In this document: positions 1 to 9,450 of the stretch, in pieces
Layout: each line of letters starts with the position of its first letter
Numbering within the stretch: position 1 is the stretch's first letter
Virus record (IMG/VR): IMGVR_UViG_2711768034_000006
Location: 1 to 9,450 of that record
Source: a virus
Lineage: Duplodnaviria > Heunggongvirae > Uroviricota > Caudoviricetes
Length of the DNA stretch: 9,450 bases
Reading direction: 5' to 3' (one strand)
Notes under the pieces: model-generated
The model's database searches: none
The model's input: only the letters and a program-made list of their open reading frames with translations
Told to the model about the DNA's origin: nothing
Position numbers and translations under genes: made by a program

Positions 1-3
1 ACG

Positions 4-228
4 TTACGGGCTGGCAAACGGCACGATTTCGGCTGATGCCACCTCCCTGGTGCGATAACTACACAGCAGGTTCCGCCCTAGCTTGACCAGTTCCTGCTGC
101 ACGCCTGGCAGCCGGTCGCGAGCATGGTCTACCGCTTCCTGTTCAGTGGCGAAACCCTCCATAATTTCGGTTTCGGTGTAGGTGCCGTGTTCCGGGTCAA
201 AAGCAATGATATATGCGCGATAACTCAT
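4..228 (-). CDS. Hypothetical small protein (74 aa), last gene of primase operon
   Basis: ATG at 228 preceded by GAGGG Shine-Dalgarno about 8 nt upstream; 10 nt after primase stop; followed (via wrap) by intrinsic terminator; no family recognised. Confidence 0.55.
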   Translation of the reverse strand: MSYRAYIIAFDPEHGTYTETEIMEGFATEQEAVDHARDRLPGVQQELVKLGRNLLCSYRTREVASAEIVPFASP

Positions 229-238
229 GGTTTAGCCC

Positions 239-2554
239 TCAGAACGGTTTATCTTCGCCGTCACCGGCTGTTTCTGTCATCACTTCCTGTGCGTCACACA
301 GGGGCGGCATACCTGCACGCGCCATCTGCGCTTCACGTGACTGCGATTTGCCGTCAGCGTTCAGCCATTTGGCCTTATTGCGCAGAATCCAGCAGCGGCT
401 TGCCTTGCCGTGAACCTTAATCGGCCCATCAATTTGCAGCGCGCCAGCTTCTTCCATTGCGCGGCGCATGGCAGGTGTGAAGCGGCTTTCTTCACCGTCT
501 GACAGCACATTTGCAATGTCACCTTGCGTGATAACGTCAACCGGCCATGACAGCACCAGGCGGTCAGCGTTCTTCTGCGTCATCGACTTCGCAGCGCCAA
601 TCACTGACTGTTTGGCCGCGTTCATCGGCGGGCGTTCGCCAGGGTTAAAGCTGCTTATGTCGCGCTCCGCCAGGAACACAGCCACAGCGTTGATAAACTC
701 GCGGTCGTTCAGCGCAGCATAGAGCGTGGCGTAAACTTCCTGCGGGCGCGGCTCTGCTTCGTGATGCACGATGCGCCAGCGGCGGTCTGTGTCGTCAATC
801 GGCAGCGCGTTAAGGTGGTTACTGAACACCAGCCAGCGCATGGCGTTGTGTTCACGGTGCTGGCGGCCATACTTCGGGTTCACGTCACGATATTCAGCCG
901 TAACGATGCTGCGCAGTTTGTTGGTGTGACTGTAGCGGTTTTCGCTCACCCCGGCCTGAATCTCGTCAACGATGGCCAGAACGCGCCCAGCTAACTGGCC
1001 GTTGAACTGGCTATCAAGCAGGTTAGGCAGGTCCACGTTCGGTGCCACATAGCCACGCCATACGCGCGCCAGGACGCTGGCCAGCCAGTTGCGGCCTGTG
1101 CCGGTTTTGTTGGCCACGTGCAGCCAGCCATAGTGCGGAAGTTCGCCTGGCTTCTGCTCCAGGTGTGCCAGCCAATCCAGGAATTTTTCGCGCTCTATGG
1201 CATCCGGGAATAGGTAGGCTACATGGTCCAGAAACAGGCTGATGCCTGTCGTGGCTTCTTTGCGTTCGAGCGGTCGCCAGGTGTTGATTGCAGGGCGTCC
1301 ATCCGGGTCACGGCAGAAGATGCCCGCGCCAGGGTGGAATGTCCGAGTGATAACCGTTTTGCGCTGCGGGTCTTGTTGCCACAGAACGGCGGTAGGCACC
1401 GGCTTTTTGCGCTCGTCGCTCAGTGTCATTGACGCTGACGTAAGCTGGCGGAATTCCTTCCAGGTCATAAACATTGTTGTGTCATTGACGCTGGCCACCA
1501 TTTCACCGCTTGCGATCCACACCATAGATTCCAGCATTTCTTCGCGGGACATCGACGGCGGCAGGATGCTGACTGTTTCCGGCTGTTGCAGGCGGGCGTT
1601 TTCTTCCTGCTGCAAACGGCGGCGGGTTTCTTCCGCCACGTCAACCACGCCACCAGCGCGCGCATTGTTAAGCGCAGCCAGGACCGCATCAGCACCTTGC
1701 TCCTGGTGCAAATCATTAACATCTTTGCCTTCTGCCAGGTCGGACGGCAGGGTGGCAACCGCAAAGCCAGTGCGGAAAGCGTCAGATTCTTTGCCACGGT
1801 CAGGGACTATGACCGGAACAGCACCAGCGGCCTTGATGATGTCGGCAGCCTTGCGGATGTTGCCAGCACCAAAGGAAACCACGGCAGCGCAGCCGGTGAC
1901 GGCGTTCACGCTCCAGGCGTGGCCGATACCTTCCACGATGTAGGCTTTCTGGCCTTTCTCCAGCTTTCCAGCCGTAAATGTGCCATCCATAGGGCAGCCA
2001 CTGGCGTTGCGCTTCTCTCCTTTGTTTGGCCCTACGAACTGTAAGGAAACCAGGTTTCCGCTTGATGACCAAACAGGGATTGCCAGCCAGCCTTTCAGGC
2101 TTTTGCTTCCGCTCCTGATGTCCTGCGTAACAACGCGCAGGCCGTCAGGCTTGCCCCACTTGCGCATGATGTACGGGTGTTCAGCGGTCGCAGGTTCTGA
2201 CGCAGCCCAAATGTCAATCGGGTTGTGTTTGGCTTTTGGCTTCTCAATAGGTGCCTTTTCCGCCCTGGCTGTTGGGTCATTCCACTGCGCCACGTTACGC
2301 GCCAGCCAGAACAGCGTGTTTTCAGTCACCGAACCGTCAATCTTAAAGCTACCCCAGGCGGAACGCACATCCGCTTCATTGCGGTAGTTGGTTGCGCCCT
2401 GGCTCCAGTTATGGAAGTCATCGAATGACAGGCCAGCAGCCTTTGCAGCGCAGCCAATGCGTGCCCAATCACGGCGTGAACAGTCGTTCGGCAGGGATTC
2501 CAGGGCGCTAAGTGCGCGCTCCATGTTGGTGATTTGGTCGTATGCCAGACTCAT
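239..2554 (-). CDS. Primase / SF3 helicase, phage P4 alpha-like replication initiator (771 aa)
   Basis: Long ORF; N-terminal Trp-rich region; DnaG/Toprim-like EGxxxA motif (IVEGIGHAW, aa 206-214); helicase-like region with Walker B-like LAIVDEIQ (aa 524-531) and SF3 motif C-like LVFSNH (aa 575-580); ATGA start/stop overlap with upstream orf77; GGGGG Shine-Dalgarno. Confidence 0.85.
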   Translation of the reverse strand: MSLAYDQITNMERALSALESLPNDCSRRDWARIGCAAKAAGLSFDDFHNWSQGATNYRNEADVRSAWGSFKIDGSVTENTLFWLARNVAQWNDPTARAEKAPIEKPKAKHNPIDIWAASEPATAEHPYIMRKWGKPDGLRVVTQDIRSGSKSLKGWLAIPVWSSSGNLVSLQFVGPNKGEKRNASGCPMDGTFTAGKLEKGQKAYIVEGIGHAWSVNAVTGCAAVVSFGAGNIRKAADIIKAAGAVPVIVPDRGKESDAFRTGFAVATLPSDLAEGKDVNDLHQEQGADAVLAALNNARAGGVVDVAEETRRRLQQEENARLQQPETVSILPPSMSREEMLESMVWIASGEMVASVNDTTMFMTWKEFRQLTSASMTLSDERKKPVPTAVLWQQDPQRKTVITRTFHPGAGIFCRDPDGRPAINTWRPLERKEATTGISLFLDHVAYLFPDAIEREKFLDWLAHLEQKPGELPHYGWLHVANKTGTGRNWLASVLARVWRGYVAPNVDLPNLLDSQFNGQLAGRVLAIVDEIQAGVSENRYSHTNKLRSIVTAEYRDVNPKYGRQHREHNAMRWLVFSNHLNALPIDDTDRRWRIVHHEAEPRPQEVYATLYAALNDREFINAVAVFLAERDISSFNPGERPPMNAAKQSVIGAAKSMTQKNADRLVLSWPVDVITQGDIANVLSDGEESRFTPAMRRAMEEAGALQIDGPIKVHGKASRCWILRNKAKWLNADGKSQSREAQMARAGMPPLCDAQEVMTETAGDGEDKPF

Positions 2555-3457: not shown

Positions 3458-5734
3458 TTACGGTGCTGCTAATCCGTCATTCATCATGCTACGATTTCGG
3501 ATTCCTTGCTGCTGTTTCAGCTTCTGCGCCACCTTATTTGCCAGCGCATCTTCATTCATGCCAGGCTCGGCCTTCACGTTGATGGTGTACTGGTCGTTCG
3601 TGTTCACCGTTGTGTTGCCGGTGCGGTTAGCCAGTGCCGGTGAAGGCAAGGACGCACCAGGGGCGGCGGTCGCTGCTGGCTGGCTGCTTTCGTCTTCACC
3701 GAACGGATTGCTAAAGAAATCTTTGGTTTTCTGCCACGCACCACCAGCAACATCAGACACGGCGTTTTTAAACTCCAGTGCCTTGTTGGTCAGGTTGCCG
3801 ATGTTGTCAGACACCCACAGAATCTTATCAATCAGGAACGTGATCGGTGCGGTCACAAGCTCGATGCCAGCCGCCAGGGTCTTACCGAACGTCATCCCCA
3901 TTTTACCGGCCTTATCCAGTTCCTCGCCGCTGTATTTGACCGGTTCGGTCAGTGACGTGAACCAGTTGAAAACCGTCTTAACCGCAGCACCCACACCATC
4001 AATGACAGGTTTCAGCGGCCCCATGCGTTCATAAAGGCGGCTCAGAGCTTCGCTAAGCGGTTCCAGCCCGGATTTGATGCCTTCACCCACTCCGCCAAAG
4101 AAAGCCTTCACACCGGCCCAATGGCGGTAAATCTGATAACCTGCCAGCGCCAGGCCAGCTACGGCAGCACCCACGCCAGTGGATATGAACGCCGCACCAA
4201 CGGCACGAATGCCGGTAGCCACCGCAGGCAGGCCACGGGTGCTGGCCAGAACGGCAGATGCGTTCATGCGGGCAAACAGGCTGGACATCTGCAACACGCC
4301 ACCTTTCAGGAACGTGAACGCAAAGCCAGCGGCGAACGTCGCCACACGTAGTGCCACCAGTGCACTGGAACCAATAACCACTGCTTTGGTCACGGTAGGG
4401 TATTCGCGCGCCAGTTCGGCAACCTTGCCGATAACCGGGCCAACGGTAGCCAGAACGCCGTTGAATGCTGGCAGCAGCACTGTGCCGATCGTGACGCCCA
4501 GGTTAGACACACGGTTGTTGAAAATCTTAAGCTGTGCCGACGTTTTGGCGGTGGCTGCCTCATATTCAGCCTGCATAGAACCGGCATATTTGGTCTTGTC
4601 TTTGACCATGTCCAGATTCTTTTGGTACGTATCAAGCTGTGTCAGCATTGGTGCGATAGCGCCAATCGATTCCTTACCAAACAGTTGCGAAAGCGTTGCC
4701 GCCTGCATGTGTTTTGGCAGCTTGCTGATCTTGGACAGGATGACGCGGATTGTTTCATCGGCGTTCAGTTGCATTGATTTTGCAACCTGCTTGGATGTGA
4801 AGCCAAGCTGTTTAAACGCTTCACGCTGTGACTTCGTGGCGGATGCGCCAGCGGTCAGGGATAGCAGCAGGTTTTTAATACCGGTGGCCGCAATCTCATT
4901 CTGCACGCCCATACCGCGCAGCGTTGCACCCATCGCAGCGATAGAACCGGAAGCTGCACCAGCGACGCTGCCAAGCGGCCCGATGCGCTGCGTGATTTCC
5001 AGGATGTCTTTGGCTGATGCGGCGGTGTTGTTGCCCAGGTAGTTGATCTTGTCAGCCAGAACGTTCATCTGGTCCTGCGTCATCCCGAAGGCGGCGCGCA
5101 TCTCTGCCATTGCCTGGCCTGCCTGGTCGGCGCTGACGTCAAAAGCCACACCCATTTTGATGGCCGATTCAGCAAACTTGGTTAGTTCGCTGGTGGCGAT
5201 GCCTGATTGAGCACCAGCGGCAACAATCTTGCCGATTTCGTTGGCTGCCATCGGCATTTTGGTTGACATATCCTGGATAGCCTGGCCCATCTTAACCAGG
5301 CCGTCAGGGGTTTCGAAGTTGGCAACCTTGCGGATATCTGCCAGCGTATCTTCAAAATCCATAGCCTGTTTGATCGGTACAGCTACCGTTGCGCCAAGTG
5401 CGACAGTCCCCAGGATTCCTTCTTTGTAGCCTTGACGCTTCGCCAGGTTGCGTTCGCGGGCATCCTCCACGCGTTTCAGGCGTTCGGTGGCAGAACGAAG
5501 GCGTTCAACCTGCCCGACAACCGTTTGATAGCGGTCCTTCATGCGGGAGAATATCGCGCTATCCTGGCCATAACGCTTCATTGCTTCATTTAACTGGCGC
5601 TGTTCGCGCGACAGCTTAGAGATTGCGCTACCAATCTCGACGGTATTTTTCTTTACAGTTCCAAATGCACCACGAAGGCTGCCGGAAACGGCCCCACCAA
5701 TCGTGATTTTTGCATTTAACTTCTTGTTGGCCAT
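3458..5734 (-). CDS. Phage tail tape-measure protein-like (758 aa)
   Basis: Coiled-coil, A/G/Q-rich N-terminal half typical of tape-measure core regions; long central hydrophobic Gly/Ala-rich segment (about aa 440-540); size typical of siphovirus tape-measure proteins; ATG at 5734. Confidence 0.75.
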   Translation of the reverse strand: MANKKLNAKITIGGAVSGSLRGAFGTVKKNTVEIGSAISKLSREQRQLNEAMKRYGQDSAIFSRMKDRYQTVVGQVERLRSATERLKRVEDARERNLAKRQGYKEGILGTVALGATVAVPIKQAMDFEDTLADIRKVANFETPDGLVKMGQAIQDMSTKMPMAANEIGKIVAAGAQSGIATSELTKFAESAIKMGVAFDVSADQAGQAMAEMRAAFGMTQDQMNVLADKINYLGNNTAASAKDILEITQRIGPLGSVAGAASGSIAAMGATLRGMGVQNEIAATGIKNLLLSLTAGASATKSQREAFKQLGFTSKQVAKSMQLNADETIRVILSKISKLPKHMQAATLSQLFGKESIGAIAPMLTQLDTYQKNLDMVKDKTKYAGSMQAEYEAATAKTSAQLKIFNNRVSNLGVTIGTVLLPAFNGVLATVGPVIGKVAELAREYPTVTKAVVIGSSALVALRVATFAAGFAFTFLKGGVLQMSSLFARMNASAVLASTRGLPAVATGIRAVGAAFISTGVGAAVAGLALAGYQIYRHWAGVKAFFGGVGEGIKSGLEPLSEALSRLYERMGPLKPVIDGVGAAVKTVFNWFTSLTEPVKYSGEELDKAGKMGMTFGKTLAAGIELVTAPITFLIDKILWVSDNIGNLTNKALEFKNAVSDVAGGAWQKTKDFFSNPFGEDESSQPAATAAPGASLPSPALANRTGNTTVNTNDQYTINVKAEPGMNEDALANKVAQKLKQQQGIRNRSMMNDGLAAP

Positions 5735-6715: not shown

Positions 6716-6880
6716 TTATTTGCCGTTCAGCCCGCTACTCAGAAACTTTTCAATCACCTGGCTGCGTGAAGGGCGGATGCCTGTTCTGCGTTCCAGTTTG
6801 GCTTGCTCTCTTTCGACCTGGCGCACCAGGTCAGGGGCGAGGCGTACCGTTACGTGCTGGCGTGTTTCTTGTCGTTTCAT
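6716..6880 (-). CDS. Ribbon-helix-helix (Arc/CopG-like) DNA-binding protein, 54 aa
   Basis: My own translation of the minus strand: MKRQETRQHVTVRLAPDLVRQVEREQAKLERRTGIRPSRSQVIEKFLSSGLNGK; beta-strand/helix/helix pattern resembling Arc; below the ORF-track size cutoff; ATG 3 nt after orf104 stop. Confidence 0.7.
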   Translation of the reverse strand: MKRQETRQHVTVRLAPDLVRQVEREQAKLERRTGIRPSRSQVIEKFLSSGLNGK

Positions 6881-7200: not shown

Positions 7201-8085
7201 TCAAGCCTTCCAGAACATAGTTGAGTCAGGCACCAGTGCGGATGCGTTCACCCACACAACGATTTCAACGGCACCATTCAGCACGCGGCGGGCGGTGACG
7301 CGGATTTCATCATCCAGGGCAACGGCTGCATTGCCGAAAGCGCCAATGATTGTGCTGGAAGTCTGGCCGCTGATTTCAGCGCGTACACCGTAGGCACGCA
7401 GAACGCCGTCTTGCAGTTCCAGGCCGGTGCAATCACCGCCAACAATGGCTTTAACTTCATCAAAGCGCAGGTTTTTGGCTGCAATCTTCTGCGCCACTGC
7501 GGTGAATGACGGGCTGGTAAGGGTTTCCGCTGCGCTTTCCAGGTGGTTCAGCAGCACGAAGTCAGCCAGATCGGCAATACCGCGTTCAATGGCGGTGTTG
7601 ACCGCTTCCAGCACTGTATCGTCAGCGAATTCGTGTTTCAGTTGCTGGCGGGTCAGGGTGTAGCCAACGCCGTAAGCCGGTGCGGTGTTGTGGTCGAATG
7701 CTGCAACCATGTACGGCTTGCCGCTCATGCTGATTTCTTCGCCGTCAGTAACTTTGGCGAACGCACCAGGGCGGATGACAACGAAGCGGTCAGCCACTTC
7801 GAGGCCAGTCGTTGCACCAGTCTGGCCAGTCGGCTGCGTGGTCATCGGGCCAGGAATGCGGATGATTTCAGCGCCTGCCTGTGCCACCAGCGAACGTTCA
7901 GCCAGAACAGCGTTGAAGGTGGTCTGCTTGCCACCTTTCGGGGTCAGCACGTCATTCATGGACAGGTAGCGAACTGCTGCCGGTTCCATAGGGATAAATT
8001 GAGTAATATCACCGTTGCCATCAGTGCGAACATGGCCGCCCTGGTGGTTCAACGCGTCGTTGATAAGTTGAGATAAAACGTTCAT
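7201..8085 (-). CDS. Beta-rich structural-like protein of unknown family (294 aa), first gene of operon 2
   Basis: ORF-track start at 8169 is TTG with a non-protein-like leader; ATG at 8085 has GGAG 8-9 nt upstream; A/G/T/V-rich composition like capsid or tail proteins; no motif recognised. Confidence 0.65.
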   Translation of the reverse strand: MNVLSQLINDALNHQGGHVRTDGNGDITQFIPMEPAAVRYLSMNDVLTPKGGKQTTFNAVLAERSLVAQAGAEIIRIPGPMTTQPTGQTGATTGLEVADRFVVIRPGAFAKVTDGEEISMSGKPYMVAAFDHNTAPAYGVGYTLTRQQLKHEFADDTVLEAVNTAIERGIADLADFVLLNHLESAAETLTSPSFTAVAQKIAAKNLRFDEVKAIVGGDCTGLELQDGVLRAYGVRAEISGQTSSTIIGAFGNAAVALDDEIRVTARRVLNGAVEIVVWVNASALVPDSTMFWKA

Positions 8086-8219
8086 TAAAAATGCTCCGGT
8101 TGTTGTGCAATAAATCGTCTGGAATGACTTAAAGATATACAGTAACCAGACCGAACACAATAGCCACAATGTGAGCTTTTTAATGTAAAATCAGTAACTT
8201 ATAACCCTGAATACTTGCA

Positions 8220-8249
8220 AATAACCAGGCATAATCCGGCGTAATCGAT
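8220..8249. repeat. Second copy of the phased 10-bp repeat array (AATAACCAGG / CATAATCCGG / CGTAATCGAT) upstream of operon 2
   Basis: Shares the 17-mer CATAATCCGGC[A/G]TAATCG with 3365-3381. Confidence 0.45.
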
Positions 8250-8379
8250 ATTTACACATCTTTACAATTCAGCATGTGTAAAACGTGTTCGCTTTATTTT
8301 GCAATCGCGCACGTATGGTGCCAGTGCTTTGATAAGGTTCACATAAATGATTGATTTACTTGACGTAATCATAAAGTGA

Positions 8380-8570
8380 GTTTTGGAGGGGCACGCACAA
8401 CGCGAATTACGCGGGACCAATGCCCCCGCCCTGTACTGCCGCCGAGGAGGACCCTTCGATTTTTGAGGCAGGCAGGCGGCCAGGCGGTGCGCGCAAGGTC
8501 CATTATGTTAAATCGCGGAGTTTGCAGGCAGAAAGAAGCACCAGGAAGGTGCTGGCAGGCGAACGGCGCA
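8380..8570. other. GC-rich non-coding island with nested short hairpins (candidate cos/pac site or structured RNA)
   Basis: Abrupt GC-rich stretch inside an AT-rich intergenic region; inverted repeats GGGGCA/TGCCCC (8388-8426), CGCG-aatta-CGCG (8401-8413), AGCACC-aggaa-GGTGCT (8537-8553); both overlapping ORFs translate to non-protein-like sequence. Confidence 0.3.
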
Positions 8571-9065
8571 TAATCTGACATATTCCGCGCGCTTTCAGCC
8601 CGTATTCACTCAGGCTTATTGTTGCGATATGTGCAACGTTCTGGCTGTTTACTGAACAGCTACTGTTTGAACGCAAAACAAGGCTGAAAGGCTCGTTTCC
8701 TGTAGTTACATCATACTTCTGTATGTTGTACCTATTCCGGCTGCTGCTTTGGTTAGACGTGAAAAAGCGTGGTTACGAATGAGCGGACCACCACCAGCAC
8801 CCATGCCGCCCAGGCACCCCATCCGGTTACAACGCTGAATTGAGTTGTAACCGTGTTATGTTTCTGAAAAATAACAAATTTCGTGCAATCGGTTACAACG
8901 GTTACGCCAAGTTCATAAAGTTTGGAAAAAGCACTATGGGTATATAGGAATATACGAATTTCTTTTTTTTACTAATCTGTTGTAACCATTGTAACCGGAA
9001 TGGGTAAAATCATTAATATTCAGTGGCTTGCGTGGTTACAACGCCGGTTACAACACCGATTTTGC

Positions 9066-9092
9066 GTTGTAACCGTTGTAACCGTTGTAACC
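9066..9092. repeat. Three perfect tandem copies of GTTGTAACC
   Basis: Read directly. Confidence 0.9.
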
Positions 9093-9103
9093 GTAGTAGG
9101 CAT

Positions 9104-9129
9104 AAAAAAGCCCCGGCAGATGCCAGGGC
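9104..9129 (-). terminator. Intrinsic terminator ending the primase operon
   Basis: Minus-strand RNA GCCCUGGC-AUCU-GCCGGGGC (8-bp stem with one G-U, 4-nt loop) followed by UUUUUU, 25 nt after orf74 stop. Confidence 0.55.
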
Positions 9130-9151
9130 GGTCAGAACAAAAATTGTTGTA

Positions 9152-9450
9152 ACGTTACGGGCTGGCAAACGGCACGATTTCGGCTGATGCCACCTCCCTG
9201 GTGCGATAACTACACAGCAGGTTCCGCCCTAGCTTGACCAGTTCCTGCTGCACGCCTGGCAGCCGGTCGCGAGCATGGTCTACCGCTTCCTGTTCAGTGG
9301 CGAAACCCTCCATAATTTCGGTTTCGGTGTAGGTGCCGTGTTCCGGGTCAAAAGCAATGATATATGCGCGATAACTCATGGTTTAGCCCTCAGAACGGTT
9401 TATCTTCGCCGTCACCGGCTGTTTCTGTCATCACTTCCTGTGCGTCACAC
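9152..9450. repeat. Wrap-around duplicate of window positions 1-299
   Basis: Identical sequence; the ORF track lists the same 74-aa protein at 4..228 and 9155..9379. Confidence 0.9.
9155..9379 (-). CDS. Second copy of the 74-aa hypothetical protein (same locus as 4..228 via wrap-around)
   Basis: Identical translation in ORF track. Confidence 0.55.
   Translation of the reverse strand: MSYRAYIIAFDPEHGTYTETEIMEGFATEQEAVDHARDRLPGVQQELVKLGRNLLCSYRTREVASAEIVPFASP

What the first reader, a model, noticed from the sequence alone, without database searches (positions are those of the whole stretch)
8380..8570. GC-rich structured island in the large intergenic region: cos/pac or small RNA candidate
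About 190 bp of GC-rich sequence with several nested inverted repeats sits between the operon 2 promoter and the iteron origin. It is open on both strands, yet both translations look non-protein-like. An element with no terminase would need a packaging site recognised by a helper, and this is the most plausible location; a structured regulatory RNA is the alternative.
Basis: inference. Interest (0 to 1): 0.5.

Follow-up and report, generated by a model that had tools for sequence, protein, structure and literature searches.

The report
Helper-phage cos site beside plasmid Xer site
The GC-rich island is not an RNA: its left half copies the DNA-packaging (cos) site of Jilinvirus phages and its centre is a plasmid dimer-resolution (XerC/XerD) site, on a 9.15-kb circular, integrase-less phage satellite.

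Summary
The window is a circular 9,151-bp element; bases 1-299 repeat 9152-9450. It has no integrase or terminase.

The flagged island is composite:
- **cos (about 8366-8465).** It matches the region just upstream of terS in Jilinvirus phages. 8392-8429 is 95-97% identical to them and near-invariant across 17 satellite and phage sequences. The 13-mer GGACCAATGCCCC (8414-8426), flanked by GCG/CGC, is the terminal redundancy of the linear ECOO78 record. It also aligns with the record ends of phages KA2-1 and FoX1. These phages carry lambda-type Nu1/gpA terminases.
- **Xer core (8486-8513).** GGTGCGCGCAA-GGTCCA-TTATGTTAAAT differs from pSC101 psi at 2 of 28 bases. Its XerD arm equals E. coli dif. 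It is present only in the plasmid forms of the family.
- **Unassigned (8514-8580).**

The structured-RNA reading fails. There is no Rfam hit, folding is no better than shuffles, and indels among relatives break both the ORFs and the one longer inverted repeat.

The satellite also encodes an HK97-fold capsid-like protein and a tape measure protein 57-60% identical to Jilinvirus ones.

This is a new instance of known mechanisms in an apparently undescribed satellite family. No virion-end data exist for the satellite.

The parts
8344..8356 (-). Single match to the IHF consensus WATCAANNNNTTR (AATCAATCATTTA), 58-70 bp left of the predicted nick. Candidate bending site only.
   Evidence: One consensus match, not tested further. 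Listed because lambda cosB contains an IHF site (own knowledge).
8366..8391 (.). Outer left part of the cos homology (TAATCATAAAG...TTTTG...). Partly conserved between satellites and phages.
   Evidence: alignment. TAAT, TAAA and TTTTG are invariant across 17 sequences. The same pattern is seen in divergent satellites L044-L047.
8392..8413 (.). Left flank of the cleavage site, CACGCACAACGCGAATTACGCG. Candidate small-terminase (Nu1-type TerS) recognition segment, cosB-like by position.
   Evidence: Nearly invariant in 12 satellites and 5 Jilinviruses. In the phages it lies between the 13-mer and the terS gene. The TerS-binding role is inferred by analogy with lambda.
8414..8426 (.). Predicted 13-nt cohesive-end sequence GGACCAATGCCCC (cosN core), inside the dyad GCGGG...CCCGC at 8411-8429.
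   Evidence: The linear ECOO78 record ends ...GCGGGACCAATGCCCC and starts GGACCAATGCCCCCGC, a 13-nt terminal redundancy. The KA2-1 record starts at the same right boundary, and the FoX1 junction aligns with the left boundary. FoX ends were verified by primer walking (PMC9151335). Polarity of the overhang is unknown.
8427..8465 (.). Right flank of the cleavage site, ending in a T-run. It contains a patch (8430-8455) that in this element differs from all other E. coli satellites and phages and resembles Enterobacter phage Arya and Klebsiella phage KA2-1.
   Evidence: Window: CCTGTACTGCCGCCGAGGAGGACCC. Others: AGGCYGTACCCCCTYCGGAAGTACC. Arya: AGGCAGTGCCGCCAGGAAGGACCC. A role in helper specificity or packaging termination (cosQ-like) is inferred.
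8466..8485 (.). 80% G+C spacer of GGCAGGC-like repeats between cos and the Xer core. Function unassigned.
   Evidence: A similar GC-rich repeat follows cos in a divergent plasmid satellite that has no Xer core (L045).
8486..8513 (+). XerC/XerD recombination core: XerC arm GGTGCGCGCAA (8486-8496), 6-bp central region GGTCCA (8497-8502), XerD arm TTATGTTAAAT (8503-8513).
   Evidence: The dif-derived pattern matches once with 0 mismatches, 0.00 expected by chance. The XerD arm equals E. coli K-12 dif (PMC2731167). The site has 26/28 identity to the pSC101 site at 6783. The same about 30 bp recurs in 246 plasmid records. It is invariant in six plasmid relatives and in a Cronobacter plasmid, and absent from integrated forms.
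8514..8580 (.). Right end of the flagged island, unassigned. It holds a 6-bp hairpin (8537-8553) that on the - strand is followed by TCTTTCT (weak terminator-like), and a variable cluster at 8514-8520.
   Evidence: No Rfam match.
8581..8745 (.). Continuation of the plasmid-form-specific cassette (8466 to about 8745). Function unknown.
   Evidence: About 95% identical between the window and a Cronobacter plasmid whose capsid-like protein is only 73% identical. Absent from integrated islands and from phages.
8824..9093 (.). Iterons (GTTGTAACC / GGTTACAAC, both orientations). Presumed origin for the primase-helicase.
   Evidence: This segment differs between plasmid relatives that carry different primase variants.
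7201..8085 (-). 294-aa HK97-fold capsid-like protein, first gene of the operon that reads away from cos.
   Evidence: AlphaFold2 model, pLDDT 72.6, pTM 0.72. Foldseek probability 1.00 to phage capsid proteins and encapsulins, including entries 7jw1 (P4 procapsid) and 7rwz (SaPIbov5 procapsid with Ccm). Some homologues are fused to a prohead protease, PF04586. No Pfam or PHROG hit.
3458..5734 (-). 758-aa tail tape measure protein. Its closest phage relatives are the Jilinvirus tape measure proteins.
   Evidence: PF10145 and phrog_28. tblastn gives 57-60% identity over the full length to ECOO78, ECO1230-10, Bas97, PT1 and ep3.
239..2554 (-). 771-aa primase-helicase (PriCT-2, Toprim, DUF5906), the replication protein of the episome.
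   Evidence: Its N-terminal half is 28% identical to the KA2-1 primase-helicase.

Best explanation
The island is two adjacent cis-acting DNA sites on a circular, plasmid-borne phage satellite of Jilinvirus-type myoviruses, followed by sequence of unknown role.

(1) **cos, about 8366-8465.** This is a copy of the helper's cos site. The helper's lambda-type terminase (Nu1-family TerS plus gpA-family TerL) is proposed to bind it on satellite concatemers or multimers. It would nick on either side of the 13-mer GGACCAATGCCCC (8414-8426) and package the DNA. Shown: the sequence identity, the position relative to terS in the phages, the match to phage record ends, and the terminase family. Inferred: that the satellite is actually cut and packaged, that the left flank 8392-8413 is the TerS-binding side, and that the right flank 8427-8465 is the side needed for terminal cleavage (both by analogy with lambda cosB and cosQ).

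(2) **Xer core, 8486-8513.** This is a psi/dif-type XerC/XerD core. The host recombinases are proposed to use it to resolve plasmid multimers, so that the integrase-less episome is inherited stably between helper infections. Shown: the sequence match, and its restriction to the plasmid forms. Inferred: the activity itself.

The 13-nt overhang length and its polarity are predictions. 8514-8580 is not explained.
For: **cos**
- Identity: 38 bp (8392-8429) is 95-97% identical to seven Jilinvirus genomes, with weaker homology to 8464.
- Position: in every annotated phage the match lies in the gap between the Rz spanin gene and terS, 40-80 bp upstream of terS.
- Phage ends: the ECOO78 linear record carries the 13-mer at both ends. 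KA2-1 starts at the same boundary with a variant 13-mer. The FoX1 ends align with the other boundary. FoX ends were determined by PhageTerm and primer walking (PMC9151335). Ten further Iiscvirinae records start 74-100 nt upstream of terS.
- Terminase type: TerL matches GpA_ATPase (E 8e-76) and GpA_nuclease (E 2e-98). TerS matches Phage_Nu1 (E 1.8e-11).
- Conservation: 8392-8429 is near-invariant across 12 satellites of three lineages and 5 phages, while the flanks diverge. The same architecture (ATAAA..TTTTG..CCACGCA..GCG-13 nt-CGC..GGAAGTACC or GGAGGACCC, then a T-run) persists in satellites whose capsid-like protein is only 40-73% identical, including one from Pseudomonas.
- Second link to the helper: the tape measure protein's best phage matches are the same Jilinviruses.
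- No terminase homologue is found in the element.

**Xer**
- The pattern match is exact, with 0.00 expected by chance.
- The dif sequence is confirmed from PMC2731167, and the pSC101 site is 26/28 identical.
- The same core is in 246 plasmid records.
- It is invariant in the six plasmid relatives and in a Cronobacter plasmid. It is absent from the integrated islands, found in 49 of 5,426 complete E. coli genomes, which share only 8380-8471.
Against: - No virion-end or transduction data exist for the satellite, or for any E. coli Jilinvirus, in the library searched.
- The Arya genome announcement states that Arya DNA is circularly permuted (PMC5754474). That would mean headful packaging rather than cos packaging.
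- The ECOO78 13-nt redundancy could in principle be an assembly overlap.
- The KA2-1 record carries an unexplained 57 nt after its second copy of the 13-mer.
- For Xer, plasmid resolution sites such as cer and psi need about 180 bp of accessory sequence on the XerC side (PMC7399989). Here that side is the cos site. No ArcA box was found and no ArgR-box match within the about 180 bp on that side; the only loose ArgR-box matches lie elsewhere, at 8178, 8863 and 9007. There is no homology to the psi flank. The long conserved flank lies on the XerD side.
- Two divergent plasmid-form satellites (L045, L046) lack a Xer core, so it is not obligatory for the episomal lifestyle.
Confidence: 0.8

Rival explanations
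1. The island encodes a structured small regulatory RNA. One version would be an Rcd-like RNA made next to a Xer site; another would be an immunity RNA like P4 CI.
For: - A weak terminator-like hairpin lies on the - strand (8553-8537, then TCTTTCT).
- 8466-8745 is more conserved between distant plasmids than the coding genes are, so something beyond the 28-bp core is constrained.
- One stem change in the Cronobacter plasmid (G-C to G-T) would still pair in RNA.
- ColE1 cer is known to contain a promoter for the Rcd RNA (own knowledge).
Against: - No Rfam family matches at the gathering threshold, and nothing relevant appears at E up to 10.
- Folding z-scores are -0.56 and -0.31.
- No sigma-70-like promoter is found in 8000-9200.
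- The only inverted repeat of 7 nt or more loses one arm in half of the relatives.
- The left half is fully accounted for by phage cos homology.
Confidence: 0.07
2. The conserved segment is a pac site for headful packaging rather than a cos site. Packaging would start here, and ends would not be fixed.
For: The Arya paper reports a terminally redundant contig and circular permutation by PCR and restriction digestion (PMC5754474).
Against: - The terminase belongs to the lambda Nu1/gpA family, whose characterised members make cohesive ends (own knowledge).
- Independent linear records end at the same two positions 13 nt apart.
- Ends of the related FoX phages were mapped as fixed.
- PCR across annealed or ligated cos ends, or across concatemers, also gives a product (own knowledge).
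Confidence: 0.06
3. The Xer core is an attachment site. The integrase-less element would integrate at chromosomal dif using XerC/XerD, as IMEX elements such as CTX-phi do, rather than using the site for multimer resolution.
For: - The element has no integrase, whereas its chromosomal relatives do.
- The XerD arm is identical to dif and the central region is 6 bp, as in dif.
- No conventional accessory sequences are found on the XerC side.
Against: - Among 5,426 complete E. coli genomes, the only record matching more than the first 92 bp of the flagged region is the plasmid pM121-3. The chromosomal relatives that were inspected lie between fis and yhdJ next to an integrase; the insertion sites of the other matching chromosomes were not examined.
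- Five complete plasmid records and more than 40 contigs of 8.9-9.6 kb show the element as an episome.
- The central region GGTCCA differs from dif TGTATA at 4 of 6 positions, which would disfavour strand exchange with dif (own knowledge).
Confidence: 0.04
4. The GC-rich segment right of cos (8466-8580) is part of the replication origin or its control region, not a recombination site.
For: It is adjacent to the iterons and is found only in the episomal forms.
Against: - Relatives with different iterons and different primase variants keep 8466-8787 almost unchanged, so it does not co-vary with the replicon.
- Only one loose DnaA-box match exists, and it lies elsewhere, at 8275.
- The 28-bp Xer match is exact and is shared with unrelated plasmids.
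Confidence: 0.03

Closest known systems
P4 satellite cos site, shared with helper P2
   Same: A satellite without terminase carries a copy of the helper's cos, so the helper terminase packages it. P4 can also persist as a plasmid and replicates with its own primase-helicase from its own origin (own knowledge).
   Different: - The helper group differs: Jilinvirus with a lambda-type Nu1/gpA terminase, and a predicted 13-nt end rather than P2's 19-nt end.
- No Sid, Psu or Delta homologues were detected.
- This element has no integrase at all.
- It carries an HK97-fold capsid-like gene and a tape measure gene.
SaPIbov5 (cos-packaged staphylococcal island with the capsid homologue Ccm)
   Same: It combines helper cos mimicry with a satellite-encoded HK97-fold capsid-protein homologue. 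The SaPIbov5 procapsid entry 7rwz is among the fold matches. That Ccm redirects capsid size is my own knowledge.
   Different: - It is Gram-positive, integrated, and encodes an integrase.
- It has no tape measure gene and no Xer site.
- Sequence identity between the capsid-like proteins is about 13%.
pSC101 psi, ColE1 cer and chromosomal dif (XerC/XerD sites)
   Same: The layout is 11-bp XerC arm, 6-bp centre, 11-bp XerD arm. The site is 26/28 identical to the pSC101 site, and its XerD arm is identical to dif. It sits on a small multicopy-type circular replicon.
   Different: - There is no homology to the psi accessory region, no ArcA box, and no ArgR-box match on the XerC side.
- The XerC side is occupied by a phage cos site only about 60 bp away.
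- The long conserved flank is on the XerD side.
Lambda cos (cosQ-cosN-cosB) with Nu1/gpA terminase
   Same: The helper terminase subunits belong to the same Pfam families. The site lies immediately upstream of the small-subunit gene, and the nick region has dyad symmetry.
   Different: - There is no sequence similarity to lambda cos.
- The predicted overhang is 13 nt, not 12.
- The sub-site assignments (cosB-like left, cosQ-like right) are inferences only.
E. coli PICIs such as EcCICFT073, and capsid-forming PICIs
   Same: Chromosomal relatives of this element have the int-alpA-primase layout typical of Gram-negative PICIs. Some relatives carry their own TerS homologue.
   Different: - The window element has no int or alpA and is episomal.
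- It lacks the portal, protease, head-tail connectors and HNH of capsid-forming PICIs.
- It carries a tape measure gene, which I did not find reported for satellites in the library.

Membership tests
Phage cos site (lambda-type terminase) | Sequence shared with the packaging-site region of a phage, next to its terminase genes | tested here: met
   8392-8429 is 95-97% identical to the spanin-terS intergenic region of 7 Jilinviruses.
Phage cos site (lambda-type terminase) | The phage uses a cos-type terminase | tested here: met
   TerL matches GpA_ATPase and GpA_nuclease. TerS matches Phage_Nu1.
Phage cos site (lambda-type terminase) | Fixed cohesive termini of phage virion DNA map to the site | tested here: inconclusive
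   For: ECOO78 has a 13-nt terminal redundancy, and the KA2-1 and FoX1 record ends align to the same boundaries. FoX ends were mapped experimentally. Against: no published end-mapping for E. coli Jilinviruses was found, and Arya is reported as permuted.
Phage cos site (lambda-type terminase) | Satellite DNA is cut here and packaged in a helper-dependent way | not testable with these tools
   Needs virion DNA sequencing or a transduction assay.
XerC/XerD recombination site (dif/psi/cer) | 11-bp XerC arm, 6-8-bp central region and 11-bp XerD arm matching known sites | tested here: met
   Exact match to the dif-derived pattern with 0.00 expected by chance. 26/28 to the pSC101 site. XerD arm equals K-12 dif.
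XerC/XerD recombination site (dif/psi/cer) | Found on circular replicons that need multimer resolution, and dispensable when integrated | tested here: met
   Present and invariant in 6 plasmid forms and a Cronobacter plasmid. Absent from the integrated islands.
XerC/XerD recombination site (dif/psi/cer) | About 180 bp of accessory sequence on the XerC side, binding PepA with ArgR or ArcA (plasmid resolution sites) | tested here: not met
   There is no homology to the psi flank. No ArcA box was found, and no ArgR-box match within the about 180 bp on the XerC side; the only loose ArgR-box matches are at 8178, 8863 and 9007. That side is the cos site. PepA binding has no usable consensus, so absence is not proven. 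I therefore file it as a Xer core of psi/dif type, not as a cer- or psi-type complete resolution site.
XerC/XerD recombination site (dif/psi/cer) | Xer-dependent recombination | not testable with these tools
   Needs xerC/xerD genetics or in vitro cleavage.
Known structured RNA family (Rfam 15) | Covariance-model match at or near the gathering score | tested here: not met
   There are 0 matches at gathering over the whole window. In 8050-9200 at E up to 10 there are only chance-level hits, the sole one in the island being S15-Methanomicrobia at 15 bits against a gathering score of 42.
IMEX (element integrating at dif by Xer) | Integrated copies flanked by dif-like sites at the chromosome terminus | tested here: not met
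   The only record among 5,426 complete E. coli genomes that matches beyond the first 92 bp of the region is a plasmid. The chromosomal relatives inspected lie at fis-yhdJ with an integrase. Insertion sites of the others were not examined, and other species were not surveyed.
P4-like satellite | Marker genes sid, psu, delta, an alpha-type primase and an integrase | tested here: not met
   Only a primase-helicase is present. There are no Pfam or PHROG hits to Sid, Psu or Delta, and no integrase.
Capsid-forming PICI | Full head module (capsid protein, protease, portal, connectors) with own TerS, plus int and alpA | tested here: not met
   Only an HK97-fold capsid-like protein is present. No portal-sized ORF, protease, TerS or integrase is found in the 9,151 bp.

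The most novel reading that the evidence does not exclude
The plasmids are a previously undescribed family of integrase-less, episomal phage satellites of Jilinvirus-type myoviruses. In this reading, placing a host Xer site about 60 bp from cos is functional, not incidental.

Xer recombination would set the monomer or multimer state of the 9.15-kb circle. That would control whether terminase meets two cos sites in cis, and at what spacing. Four units make 36.6 kb, about 89% of a 41.3-kb helper genome. This would couple plasmid maintenance to packaging, either into helper-sized heads or into small heads built with the satellite's own HK97-fold protein.

The unusually conserved 8514-8745 flank would be a new kind of accessory or regulatory region on the XerD side.
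Probability: 0.15. Interest if true: 0.7.

Novelty: new member of a known kind. Interest (0 to 1): 0.5.

Why it matters
- **A testable cos site for Jilinviruses.** It gives a precise, testable cos site (13-nt core, flanks and natural variants) for the Jilinvirus/Iiscvirinae phages. I found no published description of their packaging site. These phages are being proposed for therapy.
- **A hidden satellite family.** About 9-kb 'non-mobilizable cryptic plasmids' of E. coli, Salmonella, Proteus, Enterobacter and Cronobacter appear to be phage satellites that such phages could move between cells. That matters for plasmid typing, and for judging the transduction risk of therapeutic phages.
- **A natural set of variants.** The family includes variants with swapped 13-mers, swapped flanks, with or without their own TerS, and integrated or episomal. 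These can be used to dissect how a Nu1/gpA terminase reads its site.

The two mechanisms themselves, cos mimicry and Xer resolution, are well known.

Tried and rejected
- **Rfam scans** (gathering threshold on the whole window; E up to 10 on 8050-9200): nothing relevant.
- **RNA folding** of both strands: not better than shuffles.
- **Promoter scan**: none found. Only weak terminator-like hairpins.
- **Coding reading** of the three overlapping ORFs: rejected because indels among close relatives break all frames.
- **Exact 19-mer scans** of the metagenome and genome collections: about half the hits were chance matches in unrelated bacteria, as expected for a 19-mer in that much sequence. Only hits with satellite-type flanks were used.
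- **Literature**: no paper in the library maps Jilinvirus ends or describes this satellite family. One search was wasted on an over-general term.
- **psi and cer core sequences** could not be confirmed from papers. I checked psi against the pSC101 record instead. The cer sequence remains from memory and is not used as evidence.
- **Motif search** for ArcA, ArgR and DnaA boxes around the Xer core: nothing usable.
- **Left flank tracking a satellite TerS**: I first read the different left flank of the TerS-bearing satellites as proof that the left flank is the TerS site. A Cronobacter plasmid without TerS has a similar left flank (CACGCAGATGTCG...), so that co-variation is confounded with helper type. 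I downgraded it to a hint.
- **The 149-aa ORF** at the position where relatives carry TerS: not TerS-like.
- **The palindrome at 8251-8282**: not found in Jilinvirus KA2-1, so it is not an obvious shared late-promoter element.
- **The iteron GTTGTAACCG**: not present in KA2-1.
Full report
**What the window is.** Bases 1-299 are identical to 9152-9450, so the window is a circle of 9,151 bp written with an overlap. All credible genes are on the - strand.
- One operon holds a 771-aa primase-helicase (239-2554; PriCT-2, Toprim, DUF5906) with three small ORFs.
- A second operon starts at 8085 and runs through small ORFs to a 758-aa tape measure protein (3458-5734).
- There is no integrase and no terminase.
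- The 1,069-bp gap 8086-9154 holds the flagged island, GTTGTAACC iterons (8824-9093) and a strong - strand terminator for the replication operon at 9129-9110.

**The observation.**
- The island is G+C-rich relative to its non-coding surroundings: 61.8% against 36% and 44%.
- It is open on both strands.
- It is not detectably structured. Folding energies have z = -0.56 and -0.31 against dinucleotide shuffles.
- Only one inverted repeat of 7 nt or more exists in 8370-8590.
- It is not coding. Close relatives differ by 1-2-nt indels at 8430-8455 and at 8514.
- It is not a single unit (see below).

**Left half: a phage cos site.**

*Match and position.* A blastn search of 8100-9150 against 50,697 phage records found eleven records representing seven Jilinvirus phages, and all hit the same 35-73 bp. 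8392-8429 is 95-97% identical in ECO1230-10, ep3, Salmonella PT1, ECOO78 and Enterobacter Arya. The match extends weakly to 8464 in HeidiAbel/Bas97 and Alux-21. In each annotated genome the match lies in the short gap between the lysis cassette (Rz spanin) and the small terminase gene, 40-80 bp upstream of terS.

*Terminase type.* The phage terminase is of the lambda type. TerL matches GpA_ATPase and GpA_nuclease (E 8e-76 and 2e-98), and TerS matches Phage_Nu1 (E 1.8e-11).

*Phage ends.*
- The linear ECOO78 record ends ...TTATGCGGGACCAATGCCCC and begins GGACCAATGCCCCCGCAGG. It therefore carries a 13-nt terminal redundancy, as expected if a cohesive end was written at both ends.
- Klebsiella phage KA2-1 starts at exactly the same right-hand boundary, with a variant 13-mer (GTGGCACTGCCCC).
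- The junction of the Xanthomonas phage FoX1 record aligns with the left-hand boundary.
- The FoX ends were determined with PhageTerm and verified by primer walking (PMC9151335).
- Ten further records of this subfamily start 74-100 nt upstream of terS.
- The window carries the ECOO78 13-mer at 8414-8426, inside the dyad GCGGG-N9-CCCGC at 8411-8429.

**Conservation shows the cos segment is under selection in the satellites.**
- In a 17-sequence alignment (12 satellites of three lineages, 5 phages), 8392-8429 is almost invariant, while sequence on either side diverges.
- 49 of 5,426 complete E. coli genomes share only 8380-8471 of the island.
- Satellites whose capsid-like protein is only 40-73% identical to the window's keep the same architecture: ATAAA..TTTTG..CCACGCA, about 15 nt, GCG, 13 nt, CGC, then GGAAGTACC or GGAGGACCC, then a T-run. 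This holds for a Cronobacter plasmid, two metagenomic elements and a Pseudomonas fluorescens contig. The 13-mer and the flanks come in several variants.
- The window is unusual in one patch. 8430-8455 reads CCTGTACTGCCGCCGAGGAGGACCC, where every other E. coli satellite and phage has AGGCYGTACCCCCTYCGGAAGTACC. The window's version resembles Arya (AGGCAGTGCCGCCAGGAAGGACCC) and KA2-1. That looks like a recombinational swap of a helper-specific segment.

**Independent link to the same helpers.** Among all phage records, the tape measure protein's best matches are the same Jilinviruses, at 57-60% identity over the full length.

**Proposed mechanism for cos.**
- Shown: sequence identity, position, terminase type, and coincidence with phage record ends.
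- Inferred: the helper's Nu1/gpA terminase binds the satellite copy, nicks 13 nt apart and packages the DNA.
- By analogy with lambda, where cosB lies between cosN and the Nu1 gene, the left flank (8392-8413, perhaps with the IHF-consensus match at 8344-8356) would be the TerS side. Packaging would then proceed leftward through the capsid-like gene. The right flank (8427-8465) would be the part needed to finish at the next cos.
- A sub-family of satellites (Salmonella plasmid pR17.0904_9.3k and several fis-yhdJ islands) carries its own TerS homologue. It is 44% identical to Jilinvirus TerS, with the C-terminal two-thirds conserved and the N-terminal HTH region diverged. These satellites have a different left flank and different 13-mers but the same right flank.
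- I first took that as confirmation of the flank assignment. A Cronobacter plasmid without TerS has a similar left flank, so the pattern may simply follow helper type. It is a hint, not proof.

**Evidence against cos.**
- The Arya announcement says its DNA is circularly permuted (PMC5754474).
- No paper in the library maps E. coli Jilinvirus ends.
- The KA2-1 record has 57 unexplained bases after its second 13-mer copy.

**Centre: a Xer core.**
- 8486-8513 reads GGTGCGCGCAA-GGTCCA-TTATGTTAAAT.
- A pattern derived from E. coli dif (GGTGCGCATAATGTATATTATGTTAAAT, confirmed in PMC2731167) matches the window once, with no mismatch in the specified positions and 0.00 expected by chance.
- The pSC101 record carries GGTGCGCGCAAGATCCATTATGTTAAAC at 6783. 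I recall this as the psi core. The window differs at 2 of 28 positions.
- The same about 30 bp occurs in 246 plasmid records of many replicon types.
- Within this family, the core and everything from 8466 to about 8787 are present and almost invariant in the plasmid forms. These are pM121-3, Proteus pW47-1, Salmonella pR17.0904_9.3k, pSCU-121-2, pECQ4552 and a Cronobacter plasmid. The segment is absent from the integrated islands, which have an integrase instead.
- That distribution fits multimer resolution of an episome.

Two caveats apply:
- Plasmid resolution sites need accessory sequences on the XerC side (PMC7399989). Here that side is the cos site. It has no psi-like flank, no ArcA box, and no ArgR-box match within the about 180 bp on that side.
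- Two divergent plasmid-form satellites have no Xer core.

Integration at dif (an IMEX lifestyle) finds no support in the E. coli data. The only record that matches beyond the first 92 bp of the region is a plasmid, and the chromosomal relatives I inspected lie between fis and yhdJ.

**Right end and beyond: unexplained.**
- 8514-8580 has a small hairpin (8537-8553), weakly terminator-like on the - strand, and a variable cluster at 8514-8520.
- The block 8466-8745 is about 95% identical between the window and the Cronobacter plasmid, although their capsid-like proteins are only 73% identical.
- It does not co-vary with the iterons or the primase type.
- Something beyond the 28-bp core is therefore conserved or recently exchanged. 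I could not assign it.

**Context that bears on the mechanism.**
- The first gene reading away from cos (7201-8085) has no Pfam or PHROG hit. Its AlphaFold2 model (pLDDT 72.6, pTM 0.72) matches HK97-fold capsid proteins and encapsulins at Foldseek probability 1.00. The matches include the P4 procapsid and SaPIbov5 procapsid entries.
- Some homologues are fused to a prohead protease, and one source names a homologue 'major capsid protein'.
- The element therefore pairs cos mimicry with a capsid-protein homologue, as SaPIbov5 does with Ccm (own knowledge), and adds a tape measure gene.
- By arithmetic, 9.15 kb is 22% of a 41.3-kb helper genome, and four units make 36.6 kb (89%).
- Whether it is packaged as single units in small heads or as multimers in helper-sized heads cannot be decided here.
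- Homologues of the capsid-like protein lie on more than 40 contigs of 8.9-9.6 kb from E. coli, Salmonella, Enterobacter and Cronobacter. The episomal form is therefore common.

**Comparison and novelty.**
- Satellite copies of a helper cos site are known (P4/P2, SaPIbov5, E. coli PICIs), and so are plasmid Xer sites.
- The island is a new instance of both. It lies in a satellite family and a helper group for which I found no description in the library.
- It fails the marker tests for P4-like satellites and for capsid-forming PICIs.
- The window element also lacks the int-alpA pair of classical PICIs, though its chromosomal relatives have it.

**Verdict.**
- The cos interpretation is right for the left half.
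- The RNA alternative is not supported.

Noticed in passing
window 1-299 and 9152-9450: An exact 299-bp terminal overlap. The window is a circular 9,151-bp molecule, so the 74-aa ORF at 4-228 is the same gene as 9155-9379.
   Followed up: yes
window 7201-8085 (-): The 294-aa protein has no Pfam or PHROG match but is predicted to have an HK97 capsid fold. Some homologues are fused to a prohead protease. It is either a satellite-encoded capsid protein or a Ccm-like size-redirecting homologue.
   Followed up: partly
window 3458-5734 (-): A satellite-borne tail tape measure protein, 57-60% identical over its full length to Jilinvirus tape measure proteins. Small ORFs just upstream may be tail assembly chaperones. 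Why a satellite would carry its own tape measure is unexplained.
   Followed up: partly
window 8251-8282: A perfect 9-bp palindrome, TTTACACAT-N14-ATGTGTAAA, upstream of the capsid-like operon. It is conserved in the UPEC85 island (one change in the spacer). It is absent from the TerS-type satellites and from phage KA2-1. It is a possible operator or activator site.
   Followed up: partly
window 8466-8745; L044 (Cronobacter plasmid): This non-coding block is about 95% identical between plasmids whose capsid-like proteins are only 73% identical. It is independent of iteron and primase type. It is more conserved than the genes, and its function is unknown.
   Followed up: partly
window 8788-9101; L004, L017, L018: The iteron segment is replaced in relatives that carry a different primase-helicase variant (VapE- or Toprim-annotated, about 762 aa). 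This suggests that origin and replication protein are exchanged together as a module.
   Followed up: no
L017 2319-2798; L006 9278-9757; L041-L043: A sub-family of these satellites, both plasmid and integrated, encodes its own TerS homologue. It is 44% identical to Jilinvirus TerS, with the N-terminal HTH diverged, and is annotated in places as an AbiEi antitoxin. It comes with different 13-mers (GGGAATATGACCC, GTGCATATGCCCC, GGTCATATGGCCC).
   Followed up: partly
L005, L006, L041 (E. coli chromosomes): Integrated relatives sit between fis and yhdJ. Their layout is int-alpA-primase(VapE) ... capsid-like ... tape measure. The tape measure gene abuts fis.
   Followed up: partly
L019 (pECQ4552_IHU03, 17,382 bp): This record is a head-to-tail dimer of the about 8.7-kb element, and the tape measure gene is not annotated in either copy. 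It may be a true multimer or an assembly product.
   Followed up: no
L024 (Klebsiella phage KA2-1) record end: The second copy of the 13-mer lies 57 nt from the end of the record, not at the end. Those extra 57 nt are unexplained.
   Followed up: no
L046 (Pseudomonas fluorescens contig, 10,014 bp): A satellite of the same gene layout in Pseudomonas keeps a near-identical cos core (GCGGGACCCATGCCCCCGC). The family therefore extends beyond Enterobacterales, as do the Iiscvirinae phages.
   Followed up: no
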